DNA of 32,000 nucleotides from the NCBI GenBank assembly GCA_030688545.1, contig JAUYHT010000006.1, positions 300,001-332,000 on the forward strand, written 5' to 3'. Both the position numbers and the translations under genes were made by a program. Positions within the stretch are counted from its first letter, which is position 1. Every line of letters starts with the position of its first letter. Source of the DNA: Candidatus Iainarchaeum sp. (lineage in GTDB: Archaea; Iainarchaeota; Iainarchaeia; Iainarchaeales; VGJJ01). Below, in pieces: positions 19,639 to 28,818 of the stretch. Under the pieces are notes generated by a model that saw only the letters and a list, made by a program, of their open reading frames with translations, was not told where the DNA came from and made no database searches.

Positions 19639-20448
19639 TCAAGCCCCTCCTTGCTTGGTCATCAAACCCGCGAGGGCGCTTTCAGTCCAGATGGTTAGTC
19701 TTCCCGCATGGGTTCCAGGGGCCAAATGCGCGGCGTTGAGCGTGCGCATCGACACCACGTCCACTCCCGCTAGATTGCGGGCGGCGCGGGCGATTTTGGG
19801 TTGGCCTTCCACAACAATGAGGATGGATTTCTTCTGCTTGTAGGGTTTTCCCCGGTTTTTCATCTTGCCTGCGCGGTTTTTCCTCTGTTTCTTGGCATGG
19901 GTGACATCCTCCAGCACATGAAGGGCTTGTAACGCCTCCCTCACATCCTTGGTTTTGGTCAATGCTTCAAATGAATGGTCCACGAGGAGGGGAAAAATGT
20001 TTTCATCAAACCGGTGGCCGCGGCGCTTGACCATATCCCTATTCACCGATGCCGCGATGGCGCTCGCAATGGCTTTCTTTCGTTCCTTGGCGTTGATGTA
20101 TTCTTCCCGCTTGGCCTCCACTTTAGGAGGGTGGGCCATGGGTCCCCCACGGGCTTGTGGTACGGAGGCCACCTTTCCATAGAGGATGCCTCGCCGGTTG
20201 CGCATGCGGGGCAGGCGGGCGCGGCCCACATTGATCGTGCGGTACATCGTGGGTTTTCCCCGCACCCCAATGTATTCCGCGGTATTGTTTCGTCCCGAAC
20301 CCGGTTTCTTTCCCATGGGTTGTAACCGCGAGGATTCCACCGCCAGAACGGCGCGCTTGATGAGGTGCGGCCAGTAGGGGGTGTGAAAAACGGCTGGGAG
20401 TTCCAGGTCCTTAGCCTTCTCTCCCTTGTTGGAATAGAGCGCGGGCAT
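19639..20448 (-). CDS. rpl4: 50S ribosomal protein uL4
   Basis: GRARLPRMRNRRGILYGKVASVPQARGG. The first ATG at 20448 overlaps the rpl3 TGA by 1 nt. The track start at 20451 is GTG. Confidence 0.94.
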   Translation of the reverse strand: MPALYSNKGEKAKDLELPAVFHTPYWPHLIKRAVLAVESSRLQPMGKKPGSGRNNTAEYIGVRGKPTMYRTINVGRARLPRMRNRRGILYGKVASVPQARGGPMAHPPKVEAKREEYINAKERKKAIASAIAASVNRDMVKRRGHRFDENIFPLLVDHSFEALTKTKDVREALQALHVLEDVTHAKKQRKNRAGKMKNRGKPYKQKKSILIVVEGQPKIARAARNLAGVDVVSMRTLNAAHLAPGTHAGRLTIWTESALAGLMTKQGGA

Positions 20449-21485
20449 CACACGGCCCCCGCAGTAGAGGAGGTAATCGTGATGTTCCCTATCCGATAAT
20501 CATTCCGGGGTTGGGGCCGAACACACGTGCGCAGTCCGATCAACCGTTTCACGGGTCCGGGAACGCTTCCCGCGAGGAGCATGTATTCATTCTGGATAAC
20601 CCCATAATGCATGAATCCTGACTTGGGGTTTATTTTTTTGGCATCGTCTGATATTGTGAGGATGCGTTTGTTGAATTCGGTGCGGTTATGATACCCCAAT
20701 TGTCCCGGTCGGGCCACGGTGAACATGACTGTTTTTGGTCGGAGCGGGGAAATGCTTCCCACCGCCCGGATGTATTTGGCTTTTGGTCGGAATGTTTTAA
20801 CCCCAAACCGAGCTACCACCCCTCCGAATCCGAATCCGCGGGTCACCGCTCGGACATCCACGTCCTCATTCGCCTCGAATATTTCGCTGACGGCGATGGT
20901 TTTCCCCATCTTTTCCTTGGCGTAGGCCAGTTGTTCCTCCACCGTTCCGGATAGGGCTACCTCGGCGATCTCGGCCTTCTTCTTTCCGAATCCCACTTTT
21001 TCGGGGTGGGTGTGCACGAGTAGTCGGAGGCAGTGGAGGGCCTCCTTTTGGGTGTCCAATTGTTCAAAAGTGAGTTTTTCTCTAGAAACCGTTTTTTTTT
21101 CTGTGTTCCGTTTGTGCGGATATTTTTTCTTGAATGAGGGGATGCGTTTCTGCGCCCCCTTTTCCAGCTTATCAACCGTTAGTTCGCCGTGCGCATGGAG
21201 GCCATACGCATTCTTGGTGTAGGCACGGACCCCCCACACCTGTAGGGGAGGGCATTCGATCACCGTGGTGGGAATCTGAATGTCCATGTTCTGTCGTCTT
21301 CCTTTGGGATGCTGGCTCTGCGCGAGGACATGGACCATCCCCGCTTTGTAGCCGAAAAAGTTGAGTGGCTTAGTGGGCCCTTCTCCTATTGGAAAGGAGC
21401 GGAAGCTCGGCGTTTGTTTGCGTGCACGGACGCGGGGGCGGTAGGCGATGCTCCCCTTCCTTGGGTTGTGCCGGGCTCGGACCAT
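20448..21485 (-). CDS. rpl3: 50S ribosomal protein uL3
   Basis: MVRARHNPRKGSIAYRPRVRA...FFGYKAGMVHV...GFGGVVARFG. The 42-codon N-terminal extension of the track ORF has no L3-like sequence and is rejected. Confidence 0.94.
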   Translation of the reverse strand: MVRARHNPRKGSIAYRPRVRARKQTPSFRSFPIGEGPTKPLNFFGYKAGMVHVLAQSQHPKGRRQNMDIQIPTTVIECPPLQVWGVRAYTKNAYGLHAHGELTVDKLEKGAQKRIPSFKKKYPHKRNTEKKTVSREKLTFEQLDTQKEALHCLRLLVHTHPEKVGFGKKKAEIAEVALSGTVEEQLAYAKEKMGKTIAVSEIFEANEDVDVRAVTRGFGFGGVVARFGVKTFRPKAKYIRAVGSISPLRPKTVMFTVARPGQLGYHNRTEFNKRILTISDDAKKINPKSGFMHYGVIQNEYMLLAGSVPGPVKRLIGLRTCVRPQPRNDYRIGNITITSSTAGAV

Positions 21486-21610
21486 GGGATATCTCTCTAT
21501 GGATTGGACGCGGAAAATACACCCTAAAAACAGCCTTTGCAGGCGGTATTTACCCCCTTTTGGGAGGGGGCAGTGTACCTTCCCCGATACCCAATTCCCC
21601 TTGGCAATCA

Positions 21611-21698: not shown

Positions 21699-22244
21699 AT
21701 GCCTACCCGAAATGCGTTCAAACGGTTCGTTCAAAAGATGAGACATAGACGAATCTTGGGTGAAATATTGGATGAAAATAGAGGAAGACGCCCGACCGAT
21801 ATCCCATCCGAAGAGTTGATGCGCATCGGAGGAGCTACATCAAGGAGCCGAAAAAGGCCAGCTGAAGTTGCCGTCGGCCGATCAATGGCTGACTTTAAAC
21901 AATGGATCGAAAAGATCGCAATCTATGAAACAGGAAAGGCAATCGCAATTGAAAAAGGGACGAAAATAGTTAGAAAAGGTGCACAAAAAAAATTGAACAA
22001 ATCCCGCCCACGCGGAAAGCGCTCGCCCTACAAACTGACGGGTTTGGGAAACTCAGATGCCCGCGCAACATTGAAATGGAACCAAGAAATTAGGAAACGA
22101 TTGGCAGACATGTCTATTTTCCGGAGTCCCGAAGCCGGCCGGTTTTTGGCGGAACGAGCGATGGCCGAGCAATGGGAACGCTTGCCGGACGCCCGAAAAA
22201 AAGAAATGCTCGCATGGATGAAAAAGAACGGGCGCGCTAAATAG
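21699..22244 (+). CDS. hypothetical highly basic protein (181 aa), no family recognised
   Basis: ATG preceded by GGGGAGGG. K/R-rich throughout, with no TM segment or signal peptide. Plus strand, and visibly more A/T-rich than the ribosomal genes. A T6 tract follows the stop. Confidence 0.6.
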   Translation: MPTRNAFKRFVQKMRHRRILGEILDENRGRRPTDIPSEELMRIGGATSRSRKRPAEVAVGRSMADFKQWIEKIAIYETGKAIAIEKGTKIVRKGAQKKLNKSRPRGKRSPYKLTGLGNSDARATLKWNQEIRKRLADMSIFRSPEAGRFLAERAMAEQWERLPDARKKEMLAWMKKNGRAK

Positions 22245-22315: not shown

Positions 22316-24517
22316 TTACTTCTTCCGCGGCGCCACCCATACTTCATCGGGCCATTCCTCTTCGGTGACGCGGGGGGCCCAGGCTTGTGCGGGAAAAAAC
22401 CGGGAGCGGATCCAGAACCAGGCTCCCGCAAGGATGAGGAGCACTAATATTCCCAACCAAAAACCCCTGGCGCCGCTCACGAATGCAGTGGCTTGCGCCA
22501 CGGAGTTGGTGCTGGGCTTCAGGATGAGGGTGTGCGGCGCGGATTGGGTGGCGAATCCCACGAATTGGATAGGGATATTCCGCGGTTGCATCAACCAGGC
22601 GTCGGGCGAAATGGTATAGGTCACCCGTTTGGTTTCCATGGGAGCCAATGCAATGGGGGTTTCCCCTTCTATTTTCCAACCAGTGGGAACCGTGATCAGG
22701 ATATTCCCTTCATGAGACTGATTGGTCGTATTTTGGATGAGCACATCCACCGTGTACGCGTTGCGCGTCACGGGTTCCTCCACCACTTCCGGGGTGATGC
22801 GCACCTTTTCCTCGAATACGATGTTATACATGTGCGTCACGATGTACCCCTCGCTCGCCACCTGCAGAATGAGTTGGCTCCCATTCTGCAAAAGGGACAC
22901 CGGAAGAAGGATAATAGGTTCATCAAATCCCCCCACGCGAACGATTTTTTCGAATGTCTGGCCGGTAGGTTTCACGGTTAGTGTGAGAGTGGCATCGTGG
23001 GAATAGAAGCTCGTGTTCATCAGAGGAATGGCGAATGTGGATGCGTTTCCGATGACAATTTCGGATGGGGGGTTATTCAATTGGATGGGAGCTTGCGTGA
23101 CGCTCGAGAAGAACAATGGGCGATCTTCCCCCTCCAAAGCGCATCCTTCGATGAGGGGTTGAAGATGAAGAGTATTCACTTGGGAATTGGTCTCGACGCG
23201 TACCGCGTGAATGACGTGGGAAAGGGGGGGTACAGCGATGACAGATGGGATGATGATTCCGTCTTCCAGGGTTAGCGCGACGCGAGCCGTTTGAGTGAGA
23301 GGGTTTATCAGTTCGATGGGGATGGTTTGCCCTTCCTTCACTAATCCCCCATCGAGAATGATCTTGAAGTCGGCGCATTGTTCCCCTTGTGTCCCATGGA
23401 AAGTGAATGGGATGCGCATGTTGGGAATGGCGCACGCCGTGGTATCGGTGAAATGTCCTTGGATGGTGATGAACGCACTCCCGTCGAATGACACATCATT
23501 CCTGAATCCGGTGGATTGCAGGGAGAATTCCCCAGTCTTAGTTGAGCGAATGGTTTGGGGAGTGGCCAACAGGGAATAGTCAAGTTGGTAATTGACATCC
23601 TGTATCTGGAAGTGGTCCACATGGAAGGTTTGATCGGAGTTGTTCTGCAAGAATAGGGAATGGGTATTGTTTTCTCCTGCGCGCACGTCGAAATGGGCGG
23701 GTAGCACACGCAGTTCGGTGCAGGCGAAGACATTGGTGAATGTGTTTTCCACTGTCACCTCGAATGCCCCGTCGATGTCCCCGAATGAACAGTCCTGGCC
23801 ATTTGAAAAAGCCCCTCGGGTTTCCAGGAATACATGATCCACGACATCCTCGCTTACCCGTTGCGTGCGGATTTCAATGCGCACGGGTTGGCGAGTATGC
23901 CGCGGGATGCTTTTTATAAAATCCGCATCATTGAATCCGGGGTTCAATCGCGTGCTGAACTCGGGAGAATCATCAAAGACATTGAATCCTTGCAGGGTGA
24001 AATCCTCAGAGGAATCGTTGCGCAGGAAAACCGTGTGGATGATTGTGACATCCTCGGCCACCGAAACATCCGTGGTCTCGAATGAAATGGCTTTGCATAC
24101 GTCCGCCGAATCCTGGATAGTGACATCGATGGTGAAAGTGAGGTCAGCCAATGAACAAGAAGGGGTATTGTCGAATGCCCCCCGCAGGGAAACGTTGAAT
24201 GAGGTGGTTTGGTCTCCATTCACATCTTGAGTAGTGTATCGTAGGACCAGGTTCCCACTCCCATTTTCCTGGATCTCGTCGGGAAACGAATCTACCGTGA
24301 TATCAATTCGCGAATCATCCTCTTCCACCCGGACATCATCCAAATCAAAGGAATCATTCCCCTCATTCTCAATCCGAAGGGTCAGCACACGATTAATCCT
24401 GCTTTCGGATAAAACAACCGAATCAGGAGTGACGGTGATGTCATTGCAGGTGGCGGCAAAGGCCGGGGTGGCCAGCAAGAACAAACAAACTCCCAATATG
24501 CCTAGGAAACGGCGCAT
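22316..24517 (-). CDS. large surface protein: signal peptide, four Cys-bracketed beta modules, Cys-free beta modules including a CARDB/NEW3-like one, C-terminal TM anchor
   Basis: Signal peptide MRRFLGILGVCLFLLATPAFA/AT. Cys pairs are at track-ORF residues 31/128, 148/250, 273/369 and 388/466. There is a recurring RGAF(D/S)N..C(S)(L/F)(A/G)D module end. About 11 N-x-S/T sequons. NAYTVDVLIQNTTNQSHEGNILITVPTGWKI resembles NEW3/CARDB. TM segment is GFWLGILVLLILAGAWFWI. The track start at 24538 is GTG. The first ATG at 24517 lies about 27 nt downstream of a TATA-like ATATTTAAAGG. Confidence 0.8.
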   Translation of the reverse strand: MRRFLGILGVCLFLLATPAFAATCNDITVTPDSVVLSESRINRVLTLRIENEGNDSFDLDDVRVEEDDSRIDITVDSFPDEIQENGSGNLVLRYTTQDVNGDQTTSFNVSLRGAFDNTPSCSLADLTFTIDVTIQDSADVCKAISFETTDVSVAEDVTIIHTVFLRNDSSEDFTLQGFNVFDDSPEFSTRLNPGFNDADFIKSIPRHTRQPVRIEIRTQRVSEDVVDHVFLETRGAFSNGQDCSFGDIDGAFEVTVENTFTNVFACTELRVLPAHFDVRAGENNTHSLFLQNNSDQTFHVDHFQIQDVNYQLDYSLLATPQTIRSTKTGEFSLQSTGFRNDVSFDGSAFITIQGHFTDTTACAIPNMRIPFTFHGTQGEQCADFKIILDGGLVKEGQTIPIELINPLTQTARVALTLEDGIIIPSVIAVPPLSHVIHAVRVETNSQVNTLHLQPLIEGCALEGEDRPLFFSSVTQAPIQLNNPPSEIVIGNASTFAIPLMNTSFYSHDATLTLTVKPTGQTFEKIVRVGGFDEPIILLPVSLLQNGSQLILQVASEGYIVTHMYNIVFEEKVRITPEVVEEPVTRNAYTVDVLIQNTTNQSHEGNILITVPTGWKIEGETPIALAPMETKRVTYTISPDAWLMQPRNIPIQFVGFATQSAPHTLILKPSTNSVAQATAFVSGARGFWLGILVLLILAGAWFWIRSRFFPAQAWAPRVTEEEWPDEVWVAPRKK

Positions 24518-24537
24518 ATACCCAATGAGAAGCCCCA

Positions 24538-24548
24538 CCTTTAAATAT
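24538..24548 (-). promoter_or_regulatory. TATA-like box (ATATTTAAAGG on the minus strand) upstream of the surface-protein gene
   Basis: Centred about 27 nt upstream of ATG 24517, which fits a leaderless or near-leaderless transcript. Confidence 0.35.
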
Positions 24549-24575
24549 CATTACTTTAACCCGTGAATCAGTTAC

Positions 24576-24683
24576 TCGAACTTTTTAGGAAAAAGTTCGA
24601 TCAAAAAACGACTATTTTAAAGAAAAAATCAATCCAAAAACGACTATTTCTAAGAAAAAAAGGTCAATCAAAAACGACCAGCT
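24576..24683. repeat. hairpin plus three 32-bp tandem repeats (core AAAAAGTTCGATCAAAAA), locus 2
   Basis: 11-bp inverted repeat TCGAACTTTTT-AGG-AAAAAGTTCGA (24576-24600). Units are at 24588-24619, 24620-24651 and 24652-24683. The last unit overlaps the TAG stop of the Pro-rich gene. The architecture is the same as at 3486-3592. Confidence 0.85.
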
Positions 24684-26586
24684 ATGGGCCGTGCTCTTCC
24701 TCAATCATTTTCTTCAATCGACGTAATATTTCTTTTTTGGGGTCGTCGACTGGTTCCTCCGGCACGGCTTGGGCCACTTGTTTTTCCTGTCGAGTGAGGG
24801 TTTGATTCAGGGCATCTATTGAAGCCTGCTCCTTCTCCTCCTGCTCGTGTTCCTTCTCTTTCTGTTCAAGATATGCCCAGTCCGCGGGGGTGAGATTTTC
24901 CTGATCCTCTTCGTCCGCTTGGGAAGGGATTTGGGTTTCCTTTGGTTGAAGAGGAGAGAGTGGAGATTTGGTTTCGGGAGGCGCGGAAGAAATGGGTCGT
25001 GGTTCGTCATCCATTCCTTTGGGGGCCAGGGGAGGTATCGCCACTTCTCCGGATTCCTTATTCGGGCGCGCGGGAGGAGGGGTAATTTCGGGGGTGTTTA
25101 ACCTTTCTCGGGGGACCGACCAGGGAGGAACATAGGGGCGGGGGCCACGCGGGGCTGATTCGAGAGGAGTATGAGACGGATCTCGAAGCCCCTTGGGTTG
25201 AATTGGGAATTTTTCTTGGGAGCTATCCATTTCGGATTTGTATGGCAATGGAGCTGTTTCCGGGACAGGAGGATTGGGGGCTATCGTGGGCGCCTCTTCT
25301 TGGCGTTGGGCATCGATGTGTTGCAAATAGGATGTTGGTTTTGCTTGACCTGTTTCCATGTTGGGTGTCACTGTTTGAGGGACTGGCGAATTCCCTTCGT
25401 TTCGCGTGGATGGGGTGTTTTCCACCCTCCTCCCCGATGGGGGAAACGTTTCCTGCGTCGGAAGGTGTGCCTCTTTCAAAGGGGGTGGGGCCATGGGGTC
25501 CGTCCTTTTTTCAGGGGAAACCGATATTTTTTCTTCACGGGGACGCGGTATTTCGACTTGGAGGGAGGGGATGTCAGCGTACTTTTTTCCCTCTTCTTGC
25601 ATTTCATAGGGAGTGGGATTCCCCTGCGGGGCGATGATGGGTTCCGCCGATCCGAATCCTTCCCACTTGGACGTATTATTGGTCGTCGTCCCCCGCGCAT
25701 CCTTTTTCCAAGGTGGAGCAAAAGATGGGGGTGCGGCGTCTTTCCCAGGAAGTGAACGAATATCCTTGGATGGGGTAACCACCTGGTTGGTTGATGGTGG
25801 TTTCAAATGTGGAGACGCCGGGGCTGAGGGTGGGGGAAAGGGTGATGTAAAAGAAGGAGGGGTCGTGGGGGTGGGGGTGGGAATCCCAACCCTCGTCGGT
25901 TGCAACACGATATCTTTTTCGGTGCTCGGAGGCATCGGTGCACGTTCGGGGATGATCGGCACAGAGGATGAGGGAGTAGAAGAAAGGGGGAAATCCTTTT
26001 TTTGTCCAGGAAGGATGGCTCGGGTTGGGCTGACGGTTCCTCGTGGGGCCATTTCCTGTTTGGGTCGCATGAAGGGGAGCATTTGGGCGAATGTGAATGG
26101 TTTTTTGGGTGGCGTGTTTAATGGCTTTGGATTCGATGCGATGGCGCGTTGGAGGGGGGTGGGCGGCTGTGCAGGTATAGTCGGCAATGGAGAAGCAGGG
26201 AGGAGAGATGGTCCCTGCGTCCGAATGGGAGAATAGAGTGGCGCATTTCCCGGTGATAAATTTTTTTGGGTCGATGAGAGACGGGGGGAAATGGACATGT
26301 TCTTGTTGGCGAATGGGCGCGCAGGAGTTATCGTTCCATGGGCACTCCCCTGCATCATGGTGGCTAACTGCTGGCGCATTTGACCTTGGGCGTTGGAGCT
26401 GGCGCGCGTGGGTTGGGAGGTAATCAAGGGTTGTCGTCTGGGTTTTGGTTTTCCGAATATCGCTTGGGCAACGCGCTGTCCCAATCCGGGTTGCGGTAAT
26501 TTGGGAACGAGTTCTCCGTGGGAAATCTTTTCCCGACGTTGCTTGAGGAATTCGTCGATCTCATCCACATCCTCTGAAACGGGCAT
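24682..26586 (-). CDS. proline-rich, low-complexity (probably intrinsically disordered) protein, 634 aa, no signal peptide or TM
   Basis: A 1.9-kb open frame with an ATG start about 25 nt downstream of TTTTTTATAG. The ends are acidic and helical-looking (N: EDVDEIDEFLKQRREK; C: EQKEKEHEQEEKEQASIDALNQTLTRQEK...LRRLKKMIEEEHGP). They flank about 550 aa of P/T/S/Q-rich sequence. Confidence 0.75.
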   Translation of the reverse strand: MPVSEDVDEIDEFLKQRREKISHGELVPKLPQPGLGQRVAQAIFGKPKPRRQPLITSQPTRASSNAQGQMRQQLATMMQGSAHGTITPARPFANKNMSISPRLSSTQKNLSPGNAPLYSPIRTQGPSLLPASPLPTIPAQPPTPLQRAIASNPKPLNTPPKKPFTFAQMLPFMRPKQEMAPRGTVSPTRAILPGQKKDFPLSSTPSSSVPIIPERAPMPPSTEKDIVLQPTRVGIPTPTPTTPPSFTSPFPPPSAPASPHLKPPSTNQVVTPSKDIRSLPGKDAAPPSFAPPWKKDARGTTTNNTSKWEGFGSAEPIIAPQGNPTPYEMQEEGKKYADIPSLQVEIPRPREEKISVSPEKRTDPMAPPPLKEAHLPTQETFPPSGRRVENTPSTRNEGNSPVPQTVTPNMETGQAKPTSYLQHIDAQRQEEAPTIAPNPPVPETAPLPYKSEMDSSQEKFPIQPKGLRDPSHTPLESAPRGPRPYVPPWSVPRERLNTPEITPPPARPNKESGEVAIPPLAPKGMDDEPRPISSAPPETKSPLSPLQPKETQIPSQADEEDQENLTPADWAYLEQKEKEHEQEEKEQASIDALNQTLTRQEKQVAQAVPEEPVDDPKKEILRRLKKMIEEEHGP

Positions 26587-27776: not shown

Positions 27777-28712
27777 TTACTTGCGGCGCTGCGAATAGGC
27801 CAACAGCAATCCCGCGAGGACAAGGACGATTCCCAGTCCAATCACAGGATTGGTAATGAAACCCAAGAGTCCGGTGGCGGGCGAACCAGCATTCGGGACC
27901 TCGTTCGCGATGGGTAAAATACTCCCGCGCGGAATGCCCGCTTCGCCCAATGCGATTTCTGTGGGATTGGGTTCCACCGTGTTCACGAACGTGGGGGCTG
28001 ATGTCAAGGGGGTATTCGTTCCATCTCCTGACGCGGGTGGGGACAAAGAAAGATTGTTCCCTTGCCATAAAGGATTGAATGAGAACAGGGGCACAGGGCC
28101 GCTTGATCCATCGTCATCATCATCCGTGGACGATTGCGTGCTGGGGCCTTCACAATTATCCCCTTCGCAGATCGTGGGATTAGTGTTCTGCCCATTCGTC
28201 GGAGTGCATCCGATGGTGCCGACGGCGCAGGGCGCTGGCTGGCAATTAATGGTTCCCTCTACTGGACAGGGGTCCTTGGGAGGGCAATTGGAATCGCCGT
28301 TTAACTCACAAGGATTAGGTTGATTGCAATCCGGTTCATTCACCGGACATGGATCCGTTACTTCTTTATCGCGTATCCGGCGGCCGCTAGAGCCAGGTCC
28401 GCTGGGTCCTTGAGGCGCGGGGGCCGCATCGATGCTCTGGGCCGATGTATTTCCTGTAGAAGGTGAAGATGATTCGGTGTTACTGGCAGGTGGCGCGGGT
28501 GCGGAATTGTTTCCCCCATCATTGCTTGAGGTTGTGCGCGTTGATTCATTTGTTGGCGTGGTGGGTGCCGGAGCCGATTCCGTGGCACCGGTGCCTGAAG
28601 ATCCCGAATCATTTGTCGTCGCCGGAGCGTCGGGCGCGCTGTCGGCGAATCCAAAGGGTGACAGCATCAGGCTCATCACGATGAGGACCATTCCCAGTTT
28701 CATTCCGTTCAT
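27777..28712 (-). CDS. secreted S/T/P-rich protein with a 10-Cys module, poly-Asp tract and C-terminal hydrophobic anchor plus basic tail
   Basis: Signal peptide MNGMKLGMVLIVMSLMLSPFGFA/DS. The Cys module is C-x6-C-x5-C-x7-C-x5-C-x7-C-x4-C-x6-C-x12-C-x4-C (nt 28152-28349). There is a DDDDDG tract. C-terminus is GSPATGLLGFITNPVIGLGIVLVLAGLLLAYSQRRK. The first ATG at 28712 is preceded by GGAAGGAG. The track start at 28718 is TTG. Confidence 0.75.
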   Translation of the reverse strand: MNGMKLGMVLIVMSLMLSPFGFADSAPDAPATTNDSGSSGTGATESAPAPTTPTNESTRTTSSNDGGNNSAPAPPASNTESSSPSTGNTSAQSIDAAPAPQGPSGPGSSGRRIRDKEVTDPCPVNEPDCNQPNPCELNGDSNCPPKDPCPVEGTINCQPAPCAVGTIGCTPTNGQNTNPTICEGDNCEGPSTQSSTDDDDDGSSGPVPLFSFNPLWQGNNLSLSPPASGDGTNTPLTSAPTFVNTVEPNPTEIALGEAGIPRGSILPIANEVPNAGSPATGLLGFITNPVIGLGIVLVLAGLLLAYSQRRK

Positions 28713-28818
28713 TCTCAATCAGCTCCTTCCAATTAGATGATGGTGATTTCAATCTTTTAATGTATACGTTTTAAATGAAATTGCGTTAACGACCTCAATT
28801 CATACGGCGATTGTAGAA

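What the first reader, a model, noticed from the sequence alone, without database searches (positions are those of the whole stretch)
22316..24538. Surface protein built from four tandem ~100-aa modules, each bracketed by one Cys pair
**Cys pattern (seen in the translation).** After a classical signal peptide (..ATPAFA/AT), all mature-chain cysteines fall in a regular pattern. The positions are 31/128, 148/250, 273/369 and 388/466, giving spacings of 97, 102, 96 and 78.

**Module similarity.** The modules begin alike: C-x-polar..hydrophobic-L-x-N-x-S..F-x-(L/V). They also end alike: LRGAFDNTPSCSLADL, TRGAFSNGQDCSFGDI and IQGHFTDTTACAIPNM.

**Remaining architecture.** Cys-free beta-rich modules follow. 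One of them (NAYTVDVLIQNTTNQSHEGNILITVPTGWKI..METKRVTYTISP) looks like a NEW3/CARDB fold. Then comes a TM helix and a 30-aa W/acidic cytoplasmic tail (EEEWPDEVWVAPRKK). There are about eleven N-glycosylation sequons.

**Interpretation.** A disulfide-stapled Ig-like array anchored by a C-terminal TM is what one would expect of an adhesin or S-layer-like protein. The specific module is not one I can assign to a named family.
Basis: partly seen in the sequence, partly recalled or inferred. Interest (0 to 1): 0.65.

Follow-up and report, generated by a model that had tools for sequence, protein, structure and literature searches.

The report
Disulfide-stapled Ig-domain surface protein, Iainarchaeota
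This gene encodes a membrane-anchored cell-surface rod of six immunoglobulin-like domains, four of them apparently pinned by a disulfide bond; it belongs to an undescribed protein family of tiny uncultured DPANN archaea (Iainarchaeota) whose gene always sits just upstream of the main ribosomal-protein gene cluster.

Summary
The 740-aa ORF (window 22316-24538, minus strand) has a signal peptide and mature-chain Cys at exactly 31/128, 148/250, 273/369 and 388/466. It also has 11 N-x-S/T sequons, a C-terminal TM helix and a Trp/acidic tail.

- **Modules.** Modules 1-3 are homologous to each other. Module 4 is a shorter, sequence-distinct domain with an equivalent Cys pair.
- **Fold.** AlphaFold2 (pLDDT 84.7 for the whole chain, 93.6 for one module) gives six beta-sandwich domains in a row. 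Foldseek places the module in the PapD-like/ASH Ig superfamily. No Pfam or NCBIfam model reaches its threshold, except FixG_C on domain 6.
- **Family.** It is rare: 186 representatives among 1.84 billion proteins. Every named member is a "hypothetical protein" from a DPANN MAG, nearly all labelled Diapherotrites/Iainarchaeum.
- **Cys pairs.** The two Cys are kept or lost together (333 both, 33 neither, 23 one).
- **Synteny.** In 11 of 11 loci the ortholog lies directly upstream of rpl3 on the same strand.

My best reading is a constitutive envelope (S-layer-like or stalk) glycoprotein. An adhesin role is not excluded. Disulfide geometry could not be measured because the tools give no coordinates. 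I classify it as a new variant of a known kind, of moderate interest.

The parts
22316..24538 (-). Whole ORF as listed (740 aa, GTG start); surface protein of the Iainarchaeota family described here
   Evidence: The ORF is.
24539..24570 (-). Promoter-like region: a TATA-like ATATTTAAAG (24539-24548) lies about 26 nt upstream of the ATG at 24517. It is preceded by a conserved TTCACGGG..AAAGT element.
   Evidence: The sequence is. The same element, at the same spacing to the ATG, is found in L003, L007, L001 and L004. That this implies a leaderless mRNA is an inference.
24455..24517 (-). Probable true start (ATG 24517) and signal peptide MRRFLGILGVCLFLLATPAFA (residues 8-28), with cleavage before A29-T30-C31
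   Evidence: Sequence. Orthologs align from this Met. AF2 predicts a helix at residues 5-20 with low pLDDT. No signal-peptide predictor was available.
24101..24448 (-). Module 1 (residues 31-146): PapD-like/ASH-type Ig domain with Cys31-Cys128; membrane-distal tip
   Evidence: Module HMM E = 1e-22. Single-module AF2 model has pLDDT 93.6 and pTM 0.83. Foldseek hits PapD-like domains. With M2 it is the most conserved domain (48% in the close clade).
23726..24097 (-). Module 2 (residues 148-271): same module type, Cys148-Cys250
   Evidence: Module HMM E = 2e-22. hhalign against M1 gives 97.9% probability.
23381..23722 (-). Module 3 (residues 273-386): same module type, Cys273-Cys369
   Evidence: Module HMM E = 9e-21. 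hhalign against M1 and M2 gives 64-71% probability.
23105..23377 (-). Domain 4 (residues 388-478): shorter beta-sandwich of a different sequence type, Cys388-Cys466
   Evidence: It is not hit by the module HMM, and hhalign gives <2% probability. Its own HMM finds 115 instances family-wide; the Cys pair is present in 74, absent in 27, and only one Cys is present in 14. Beta strands span 392-478.
22808..23104 (-). Domain 5 (residues 479-577): Cys-free beta-sandwich
   Evidence: AF2 strands span 485-575. It is conserved in the orthologs.
22499..22807 (-). Domain 6 (residues 578-680): FixG_C/NEW3-like Ig domain, Cys-free, membrane-proximal
   Evidence: Pfam FixG_C scores 27.3 bits, above the 25.6 cut-off. 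NPCBM_assoc scores E = 0.0025. The domain is present in P0005-7, P0011, P0013, P0014 and P0024, and absent from P0002 and P0003.
22397..22471 (-). Transmembrane anchor (residues 690-714, GFWLGILVLLILAGAWFWIRSR). It is preceded by a TAF motif (res 684-686, 22481-22489, just outside this span).
   Evidence: AF2 helix at 690-714. A pre-TM [ST][GA][FL] motif is seen in 80 of 119 family C-termini.
22319..22396 (-). Cytoplasmic tail (residues 715-740) ending in an acidic-x-W-[MLV]-x-P-x-K/R motif (EEEWPDEVWVAPRKK)
   Evidence: Sequence. The motif recurs in P0002, P0003, P0005, P0007, P0008, P0010 and P0014.
20448..21485 (-). rpl3, first gene of the L3-L4-L23-L2-S19-L22-S3 cluster; the conserved downstream neighbour of the family
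   Evidence: ORF. Synteny holds in 11 of 11 loci.

Best explanation
**What it is.** A type I membrane protein displayed on the cell surface of an uncultured DPANN archaeon of the Iainarchaeota (Diapherotrites) lineage.

**Layout.** After the signal peptide is removed, the roughly 72-kDa acidic ectodomain (pI about 4.5) forms a beads-on-a-string rod of six Ig-like beta-sandwich domains.
- Domains 1-3: homologous PapD-like/ASH-type modules.
- Domain 4: a shorter domain of its own sequence type.
- Domain 5: Cys-free.
- Domain 6: FixG_C/NEW3-like, next to the membrane.
- One TM helix anchors the rod.
- A short cytoplasmic tail carries a conserved acidic-Trp motif.

**The disulfide.** In each of domains 1-4, a Cys three residues before strand A is inferred to bond with a Cys in the F-G connection. 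This would pin the N-terminal end of each domain at the pole that faces the preceding domain, stiffening and stabilising the rod outside the cell.

**Function.** I infer that it is a constitutive structural component of the cell envelope. That could be an S-layer-like canopy or a SlaB-like stalk, probably N-glycosylated, rather than a variable host-specific adhesin.

**What is shown.** The sequence features, the fold, family-wide Cys co-conservation, the lineage restriction and the synteny.

**What is inferred.** Actual disulfide formation, glycosylation, abundance and the envelope role.
For: **Fold.**
- The full-length AF2 model has mean pLDDT 84.7 and shows six all-beta domains plus a TM helix.
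- The single-module model has pLDDT 93.6 and pTM 0.83.
- Foldseek on the whole chain matches ASH-domain arrays (hydin/CFAP proteins of the ciliary central apparatus) and macroglobulin-domain arrays.
- Foldseek on one module matches PapD, FimC and SfaE N-domains, the CEP192 ASH domain (6fvi) and the VesB/VesC Ig domains (TMq 0.45-0.59).
- Weak but consistent sub-threshold hits go to DUF1573 (9 of 63 modules), HYDIN_VesB_CFA65-like_Ig, Cep192 domains and choice-of-anchor D.

**Module signature.**
- The consensus over 389 instances is C-x2-I...F-x-I-x-N-x-S..F...V-x-G-x-F-x2-G-x2-C.
- Conservation is Asn 99%, Gly 91%, and each Cys 87%.

**Cys pairing.**
- Counts are both present 333, both absent 33, one present 23. 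The odds ratio is 98.
- For domain 4 the counts are 74 / 27 / 14.
- 113 of 141 complete proteins have an even number of mature Cys.

**Constitutive role.**
- The ortholog sits directly upstream of rpl3 on the same strand in 11 of 11 loci, although L3 identity falls to 45% and target identity to 21%.
- It has its own conserved TATA-like promoter.
- The membrane-distal modules M1 and M2 are the most conserved (48% and 47%, against 33-35% for domains 4 and 6).

**S-layer-like properties.**
- The ectodomain has pI 4.5.
- Sequons are enriched 1.4-fold across the family.
Against: - There are no expression, proteomic or imaging data for this organism.
- Codon adaptation relative to the neighbouring ribosomal-protein genes is only intermediate (CAI 0.655 against 0.655-0.78).
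- No known S-layer domain was found. S_layer_N and the TIGR S-layer models did not hit, and SLAP_DUP scored E = 0.05.
- The S-layer protein identified in Micrarchaeota belongs to a different family (PF05123). Iainarchaeota could therefore have another, unseen S-layer protein.
- The Cys-Cys distance in the models could not be read.
- Sequon enrichment is modest, and part of it comes from the structural N-x-S motif of the module.
- Paralogs carry head domains (CBM_4_9, Big_9, cupredoxin), which shows that the array can also serve as a display stalk for binding functions.
Confidence: 0.55

Rival explanations
1. It is an adhesin. The rod projects from the cell, and its tip (module 1) binds a host cell, a partner or a substrate, as expected for episymbiotic DPANN archaea.
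For: - DPANN archaea are often ectosymbionts, and their surface proteins are candidates for attachment.
- Paralogs in the same family carry N-terminal CBM_4_9, Big_9/He_PIG or cupredoxin heads on the same stalk.
- The protein evolves about twice as fast as L3 and L4.
- Disulfide- or isopeptide-stapled Ig arrays are typical of mechanically loaded adhesins (established knowledge).
Against: - The window protein has no head domain. Module 1 starts two residues after the signal-peptide cleavage site.
- The distal modules are the most conserved ones, not the most variable.
- There is one ortholog at a fixed housekeeping locus across deep divergence (11 of 11 loci), not a variable multigene set.
Confidence: 0.25
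2. It is a transmembrane linker or receptor. The ectodomain senses or holds something outside, and the conserved acidic-Trp tail motif recruits a cytoplasmic partner, for example the Pro-rich protein encoded immediately upstream.
For: - The tail motif acidic-x-W-[MLV]-x-P-x-K/R is conserved in at least 8 orthologs, although the rest of the tail is variable.
- In the closest clade, a 560-680-aa protein with conserved termini and a long Pro-rich disordered middle is always the upstream neighbour.
Against: - About a third of family members with a C-terminal TM (43 of 119) have a tail of five residues or fewer, usually just two or three basic residues. The tail is therefore not a family-defining feature.
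- The Pro-rich neighbour is absent from the more distant syntenic loci, and the 560-aa ORF in L008 is unrelated.
Confidence: 0.08
3. The conserved Cys pairs are not disulfides. They could be free thiols or ligands for a metal or cofactor, or they are reduced in an anoxic habitat.
For: - The geometry could not be checked.
- Many relatives come from groundwater and sediment metagenomes that may be anoxic.
- One paralog carries a cupredoxin domain.
Against: - There are exactly two Cys per domain, lost together.
- No His, Cys or Met cluster is conserved near them in the module consensus.
- The predicted topology puts both Cys at the same pole, with the second one in a beta-bridge next to the start of strand A.
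Confidence: 0.07

Closest known systems
PapD-like / ASH Ig-like domain superfamily (Pfam HYDIN_VesB_CFA65-like_Ig PF22544, DUF1573 PF07610, Cep192 domains; NCBIfam choice-of-anchor D NF012200)
   Same: - The beta-sandwich fold is the same. Foldseek probability is 1.0 to PapD/FimC/SfaE N-domains, CEP192 ASH domain 6fvi and the VesB/VesC Ig domains, and to hydin-type arrays for the whole chain.
- The near-invariant Asn at the end of strand B (N-x-S/G) resembles what I recall as a hallmark of MSP/ASH domains. This is a lead from memory, not tested here.
- It occurs in tandem arrays on secreted or surface proteins.
   Different: - No model reaches its gathering score on the window protein. The best results are Cep192_D4 at E = 0.034 and sub-threshold hits in relatives.
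- TM-scores are only 0.45-0.59.
- The conserved Cys pair (N-terminus to F-G connection) and the G-x-F-x2-G-x2-C ending are specific to this family.
- The family has been seen only in DPANN archaea.
Archaeal S-layer and cell-surface glycoproteins built of Ig-like domains (Haloferax volcanii csg, Sulfolobales SlaA/SlaB, putative Nanobdella aerobiophila MJ1_0160 and MJ1_0707)
   Same: - Shared features are a signal peptide, several Ig-like folds in a row, an acidic ectodomain, N-x-S/T sequons and a C-terminal membrane anchor.
- They are lineage-specific, with little sequence conservation between lineages (the Haloferax and Sulfolobus details come from established knowledge).
   Different: - There is no sequence similarity to any of them.
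- There is no evidence here for lattice formation or abundance.
- It has a protein TM anchor plus a cytoplasmic tail, instead of the lipid anchor (PGF-CTERM) of Haloferax.
- Regular intradomain disulfides are unusual, since S-layer proteins are typically poor in Cys.
FixG_C / NEW3 (NPCBM_assoc) / CARDB-type Ig domains
   Same: Domain 6 (residues 591-660) passes the Pfam FixG_C threshold and weakly matches NEW3. As in many archaeal COG1470-like surface proteins, it sits just before the TM helix (the COG1470 comparison is my own knowledge).
   Different: It covers only one of the six domains, and it is absent from two close orthologs.
Micrarchaeota S-layer protein SLP_Mh (PF05123 S_layer_N type)
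   Same: It is a DPANN surface protein, glycosylated and highly expressed.
   Different: It belongs to an unrelated family. The window protein has no S_layer_N hit.

Membership tests
PapD-like/ASH Ig domain superfamily (fold level) | Seven-to-eight-stranded Ig-like beta-sandwich that superposes on PapD N-domain, MSP or ASH domains | tested here: met
   The module model has pLDDT 93.6. Its top 50 PDB Foldseek hits are dominated by PapD-like chaperone N-domains and also include CEP192 ASH domain 6fvi and the VesB/VesC Ig domains (probability 1.0, TMq 0.45-0.59).
Pfam HYDIN_VesB_CFA65-like_Ig / DUF1573 / NCBIfam choice-of-anchor D (sequence families) | HMM score at or above the curated cut-off | tested here: not met
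   The window modules get no hit at E <= 0.1 (member 1 of A3). Relatives reach only sub-threshold scores, for example choice_anch_D at 28.4 bits against a 45-bit cut-off and DUF1573 at best E = 8.5e-4.
Pfam FixG_C (PF11614) | HMM score at or above the 25.6-bit gathering cut-off | tested here: met
   It scores 27.3 bits (E = 4.2e-6) at residues 591-660. This applies to domain 6 only.
Pfam NPCBM_assoc / NEW3 (PF10633) | HMM score at or above the 24.4-bit gathering cut-off | tested here: not met
   It scores 18.4 bits (E = 0.0025) at residues 601-648.
Archaeal S-layer protein | Recognised S-layer domain (S_layer_N PF05123, TIGR01564/01567, DUF1608, SLAP) | tested here: not met
   No such hit was found. 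SLAP_DUP scored E = 0.051, 13.6 bits against a 28.5-bit cut-off.
Archaeal S-layer protein | Secreted and anchored to the membrane; acidic; sequon-rich | tested here: met
   It has a signal peptide and a TM helix, a pI of 4.5, and 11 sequons against 6.3 expected.
Archaeal S-layer protein | Among the most abundant proteins; forms a 2-D lattice covering the cell | not testable with these tools
   The organism is uncultured and no expression or imaging data are available. The codon-adaptation proxy was inconclusive.
Archaeosortase/exosortase substrates (PGF-CTERM, PEF-CTERM and similar) | Signature motif, then a TM helix, then a short basic cluster at the extreme C-terminus; match to a CTERM model | tested here: not met
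   No NCBIfam CTERM model hits the window protein or 8 relatives. The window protein has a 26-aa tail after the TM helix. Many relatives do show a tripartite TG[FL]-TM-KK end.
Disulfide-stapled Ig domain | Paired Cys within bonding distance in the 3-D structure | not testable with these tools
   The models exist but their coordinates are not exposed. The indirect evidence is co-conservation and the fact that the secondary-structure topology places both Cys at the same pole of the domain.

The most novel reading that the evidence does not exclude
This family could be the hitherto unidentified principal envelope (S-layer or stalk) protein of the phylum Iainarchaeota/Diapherotrites. On this reading:
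- It is built from a new disulfide-stapled branch of the ASH/PapD-like fold.
- Its gene has been held at the head of the ribosomal-protein gene cluster across deep divergence within the lineage.
- That position hints at coupling between envelope production and ribosome production.
- Many members end in a previously undescribed TG[FL]-type tripartite C-terminal signal, which may mark a new archaeal sorting or anchoring system.
Probability: 0.3. Interest if true: 0.6.

Novelty: new variant of a known kind. Interest (0 to 1): 0.4.

Why it matters
- No cell-envelope protein has been described for Iainarchaeota, an uncultured and widespread groundwater and sediment DPANN phylum. The held literature returned nothing on their S-layer.
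- A single, lineage-wide ortholog at a fixed locus gives a concrete target for metaproteomics, for antibody- or FISH-guided enrichment and for cryo-ET.
- The fixed locus is also a handy synteny marker for binning.
- The module is a well-defined new sequence family: 389 instances, strict C...N...G-x-F...C signature. It could be added to domain databases.
- The regular disulfides raise the question of how these minimal-genome archaea oxidise secreted proteins.

The overall architecture itself is ordinary for archaeal surface proteins.

Tried and rejected
1. **Whole-protein family scans.** Pfam, NCBIfam and PHROGs gave only FixG_C on domain 6.
2. **PDB sequence-profile searches.** Neither the module nor the ortholog alignment gave a significant hit.
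3. **Word-indexed homolog search.** It found only 3 proteins. The exhaustive HMMER search was needed to see the family.
4. **The search for related loci with the 23-sequence alignment.** It failed because no stretch was conserved enough. The 3-sequence alignment worked.
5. **Is module 4 a fourth copy of the module?** Rejected at the sequence level. Only an iterated, drifting profile links all six domains.
6. **Codon adaptation as an expression proxy.** The result was intermediate and inconclusive.
7. **The Pro-rich upstream gene as an obligatory partner.** Rejected: it is present only in the closest clade, and the L008 560-aa ORF is unrelated.
8. **Co-transcription with rpl3.** It is not required, for three reasons:
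   - The target has a conserved promoter-like element of its own.
   - A conserved element also lies upstream of rpl3.
   - In the window, an opposite-strand ORF lies between the two genes.
9. **Known C-terminal sorting signals.** No model hit.
10. **Relationship to the Micrarchaeota S-layer protein.** It is a different family.
11. **Viral structure library.** It gave only generic Ig-like accessory domains.
Full report
**1. Checking the observation**

The ORF at window 22316-24538 on the minus strand is real and encodes 740 aa.

A direct count gives Cys at 18, 31, 128, 148, 250, 273, 369, 388 and 466, and eleven N-x-S/T sequons. Cys18 lies in the hydrophobic core of the signal peptide (MRRFLGILGVCLFLLATPAFA|ATC).

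The C-terminus has a hydrophobic segment that AlphaFold2 predicts as a helix at 690-714. After it come RSR and a 26-residue tail ending EEEWPDEVWVAPRKK.

The probable true start is the ATG at 24517 (residue 8):
- A TATA-like ATATTTAAAG lies about 26 nt upstream of it.
- The same promoter-like element, at the same spacing, precedes the equivalent Met in four orthologous loci.
- This suggests a leaderless transcript (inference).

**2. Is the repeat real?**

Profile-profile comparison of the modules, using three orthologs, gave these probabilities:

| Pair | hhalign probability |
|---|---|
| M1-M2 | 97.9% |
| M1-M3 | 70.8% |
| M2-M3 | 63.7% |
| M4 against M1, M2 or M3 | <2% |

All of the M1-M3 alignments run the full length of the modules.

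A module HMM finds three copies in the window protein: 31-131, 148-254 and 273-371. The protein therefore has three homologous Cys-bracketed modules, plus a fourth Cys-bracketed domain that is shorter and of a different sequence type.

Over 389 module instances it reads C-s-d-I...E...F-x-I-x-N-n-S-x2-d-F-x-i-d...V-x-G-x-F-x-d-G-x2-C-s. Conservation is Asn 99%, Gly 91% and each Cys 87%.

**3. Relatives**

The word-indexed search found only an identical fragment (NCBI "MAG: hypothetical protein U1C71_00315 [archaeon]") and two proteins at 39-42% identity. All eight mature Cys are invariant in these.

An exhaustive profile search of 1.84 billion cluster representatives found 186 proteins at E <= 1e-3, of which 119 are at E <= 1e-10.

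Every source-given name is "hypothetical" or "uncharacterised". The organisms are Candidatus Diapherotrites, Candidatus Iainarchaeum/ainarchaeum, one "Micrarchaeota", or simply "archaeon". The family is therefore rare, confined to DPANN as far as labels show, and unannotated.

Family architecture is [0-1 extra N-terminal part] - 1 to 5 Cys-bracketed modules - a domain-4-type module - Cys-free domain(s) - TM. The FixG_C/NEW3-like domain 6 is widespread in the family and is missing only from the two closest relatives.

**4. Structure**

*Full-length model.* It was built from a 23-sequence alignment and has mean pLDDT 84.7. It consists of six consecutive all-beta domains, a TM helix and disordered ends. 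The low pTM (0.32) is expected for a flexible rod.

*Foldseek on the whole chain, against PDB.* The top matches are ASH-domain arrays of ciliary central-apparatus proteins, followed by macroglobulin-domain arrays. These are other tandem Ig-like rods.

*Single-module model.* Module 1, modelled with 63 aligned module sequences, reaches pLDDT 93.6 and pTM 0.83. Its best PDB matches are mostly N-terminal domains of PapD-like chaperones (SfaE, FimC, PapD, YadV). They also include the CEP192 ASH domain (6fvi) and the Ig domains of VesB and VesC, with TMq 0.45-0.59.

*Sequence models agree, but below threshold.*
- DUF1573 hits 9 of 63 modules.
- HYDIN_VesB_CFA65-like_Ig, Cep192_D6/D7 and Ig_TMEM131L_3 give scattered hits.
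- Choice-of-anchor D hits relatives.
- Cep192_D4 hits the window's module 3.
- PDB sequence-profile searches found nothing significant.

*Conclusion on the fold.* The module is a divergent, currently unmodelled branch of the PapD-like/ASH Ig superfamily. Domain 6 is a FixG_C/NEW3-type Ig domain (FixG_C 27.3 bits against a 25.6 cut-off).

**5. The cysteine pairs**

I could not measure Cys-Cys distances, because the tools return no coordinates. The evidence is indirect.

- *Co-occurrence in the main module.* Among 389 module instances, both Cys are present in 333, both absent in 33 and only one present in 23. Many of the 23 are truncated sequences or partial alignments. The odds ratio is 98 with Fisher p = 5e-29. 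That p-value is overstated because the instances are related by descent.
- *Co-occurrence in domain 4.* The counts are 74 / 27 / 14, with an odds ratio of 83.
- *Parity.* 113 of 141 complete proteins have an even number of Cys after the signal peptide.
- *Topology.* In both models the first Cys sits in a short turn three residues before strand A. The second forms an isolated beta-bridge in the F-G connection. In a standard Ig sandwich, these two places are at the same pole (inference from topology).

The invariant Asn (end of strand B) and the G-x-F-x2-G-x2-C turn map to that same pole. The conserved core of the module therefore surrounds the junction with the preceding domain. A disulfide there would pin the N-terminal strand and stiffen the rod.

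**6. Genomic context**

The window is a chromosomal segment of an archaeon. Read along the minus strand, its gene order is:
- EF-1alpha
- S10
- a small membrane protein
- LemA
- a TPM-domain protein
- a secreted 313-aa Cys/Ser/Thr-rich protein
- a methyltransferase on the opposite strand
- a 634-aa Pro-rich protein
- the target
- L3-L4-L23-L2-S19-L22-S3 and onwards, through SecY

*Conserved synteny.* In every locus of the orthologous subfamily with enough flanking DNA, the gene lies directly upstream of rpl3 on the same strand. This holds for the window and for L001, L003, L004, L007, L008/L009, L010, L011, L014, L015 and L017, which is 11 of 11. Across these loci, L3 identity to the window falls to 45-49% and target identity to 21-25%. 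The adjacency has therefore survived deep divergence, while the protein evolves roughly twice as fast as its ribosomal neighbours.

*Promoters.* The target has its own conserved promoter-like element, and a conserved element also lies upstream of rpl3. In the window an opposite-strand ORF separates the two genes. Co-transcription is therefore not implied.

*A paralogous subfamily.* These proteins (P0019, P0030 and similar) carry N-terminal Big_9/He_PIG/CBM_4_9 domains. They sit elsewhere, next to an HTH-CBS gene, and in the longer locus (L012) also next to FixG_C/NEW3 and VWA proteins.

**7. Function**

What is shown is a secreted, membrane-anchored, acidic rod (pI 4.5, about 72 kDa) of six Ig-like domains. 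It belongs to a lineage-specific family with one ortholog at a fixed housekeeping locus.

I infer a constitutive envelope role: an S-layer-like canopy or a SlaB-like stalk. Three points support this.
- The membrane-distal modules are the most conserved (48% and 47%, against 33-35% for domains 4 and 6). That is the opposite of what host-specific adhesin tips usually show.
- The window protein has no head domain.

Other indicators are weaker.
- Sequons are modestly enriched: 11 against 6.3 in the window protein and 1.41-fold across the family. Part of this reflects the structural N-x-S motif.
- Codon adaptation is intermediate and uninformative.
- The characterised Micrarchaeota S-layer protein belongs to another family (PF05123). 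Iainarchaeota might therefore use something else.

The main rival is an adhesin role. That reading is favoured by DPANN lifestyles and by paralogs that use the same stalk to display binding or redox heads.

A linker or receptor role through the conserved acidic-Trp tail motif is possible only for the subclade that has the tail.

**8. Novelty and verdict**

The kind of protein, an archaeal surface protein made of tandem Ig-like domains with a C-terminal anchor, is well known.

Three things are new:
- The sequence family itself. All members are hypothetical, and no domain model covers the Cys-bracketed modules.
- The regular intradomain Cys pair in a PapD-like/ASH-type fold.
- The strictly conserved position at the head of the ribosomal-protein cluster in Iainarchaeota.

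The held literature has nothing on an Iainarchaeota envelope protein.

I rate it a new variant of a known kind, with interest 0.4. It is a solid, well-defined candidate for the envelope protein of an uncultured phylum, but it is not mechanistically surprising.

Noticed in passing
window 22397-22500 (-); family C-termini; window 27777-28718 (-); L012 10780-13005: Across the family, the C-terminal TM helix is preceded by a conserved [ST]-[GA]-[FL]-x2-L-[GA]-x-N motif (consensus GATGLAVLATNAG...). In 43 of 119 members it is followed by a tail of five residues or fewer, usually only 2-5 basic residues. This is a tripartite, sorting-signal-like end. An HMM of it also hits two unrelated secreted proteins: the window's 313-aa ORF (...SPATGLLGFITNPVIGLGIVLVLAGLLLAYSQRRK, iE 0.004) and a FixG_C/NEW3 protein in L012. 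No known CTERM model matches. It may be an undescribed anchoring signal in these archaea.
   Followed up: partly
window 24682-26586 (-): This is a 634-aa protein with no signal peptide, TM helix or Pfam hit. It has a conserved N-terminus (EVDEI[DN]EFLK.RREK) and C-terminus (K.EILRRLKKM.E.E) and a roughly 500-aa Pro/Thr/Ser-rich low-complexity middle. It is the fixed upstream neighbour of the target, but only in the closest clade (window, L001, L003, L004, L007).
   Followed up: partly
window 24590-24678: There are three tandem copies of a roughly 32-nt T-rich unit (minus strand: AGTCGTTTTTGATTGA-CCTTTTTTTCTTAGAAAT) in the intergenic space between the Pro-rich gene and the target. It is not conserved in L001, where the gap is only 43 nt. 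It could be a run of terminator or promoter-like T/A elements.
   Followed up: no
window 21699-22244 (+): This is a 181-aa, very basic ORF on the opposite strand, lying in an unusually long (about 830 nt) gap between the target and rpl3. The other genomes have gaps of roughly 170-460 nt, in two cases with a small 45-57-aa called ORF in the gap. It has no Pfam, NCBIfam or PHROG hit, and its GC3 (0.48) and CAI (0.57) are lower than its neighbours'. It may be a recent insertion.
   Followed up: partly
window 21521-21555 (-); upstream of rpl3 in L003, L007, L008, L010, L011, L014: A conserved element, (G)TAAATGC(C), followed by a short A-run/T-run inverted repeat, lies about 60-75 nt upstream of the rpl3 start codon in distantly related loci. 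It is probably the promoter and leader of the ribosomal-protein operon.
   Followed up: no
window 24553-24570 (-); L001, L003, L004, L007 upstream of the orthologs: A conserved TAATTCACGGGAAAAGT element lies immediately upstream of the TATA-like box of the target gene in the close clade. It may be a BRE plus a regulator site.
   Followed up: no
P0041 residues 208-283; P0030 residues 26-153 and 310-407; L012 and L013: Paralogous family members carry extra domains on the same stalk, either N-terminal heads or inserts. These include a cupredoxin/amicyanin-like domain, CBM_4_9, Big_9/He_PIG and N_BRCA1_IG. They sit in a different conserved neighbourhood: an HTH-CBS regulator upstream and a 270-aa protein plus a 600-730-aa protein downstream. 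In L012 the latter carries FixG_C/NEW3 and is followed by a VWA protein.
   Followed up: partly
window 27777-28718 (-); L001 3202-4173: This is a secreted protein of about 315 aa. It has a Ser/Thr/Pro/Asn-rich N-terminal half, a Cys-rich block (CPVNEPDCNQPNPCELNGDSNCPP...) and the TG[LF]-type C-terminal anchor. It is conserved between the window and L001, and no family hit was found.
   Followed up: no
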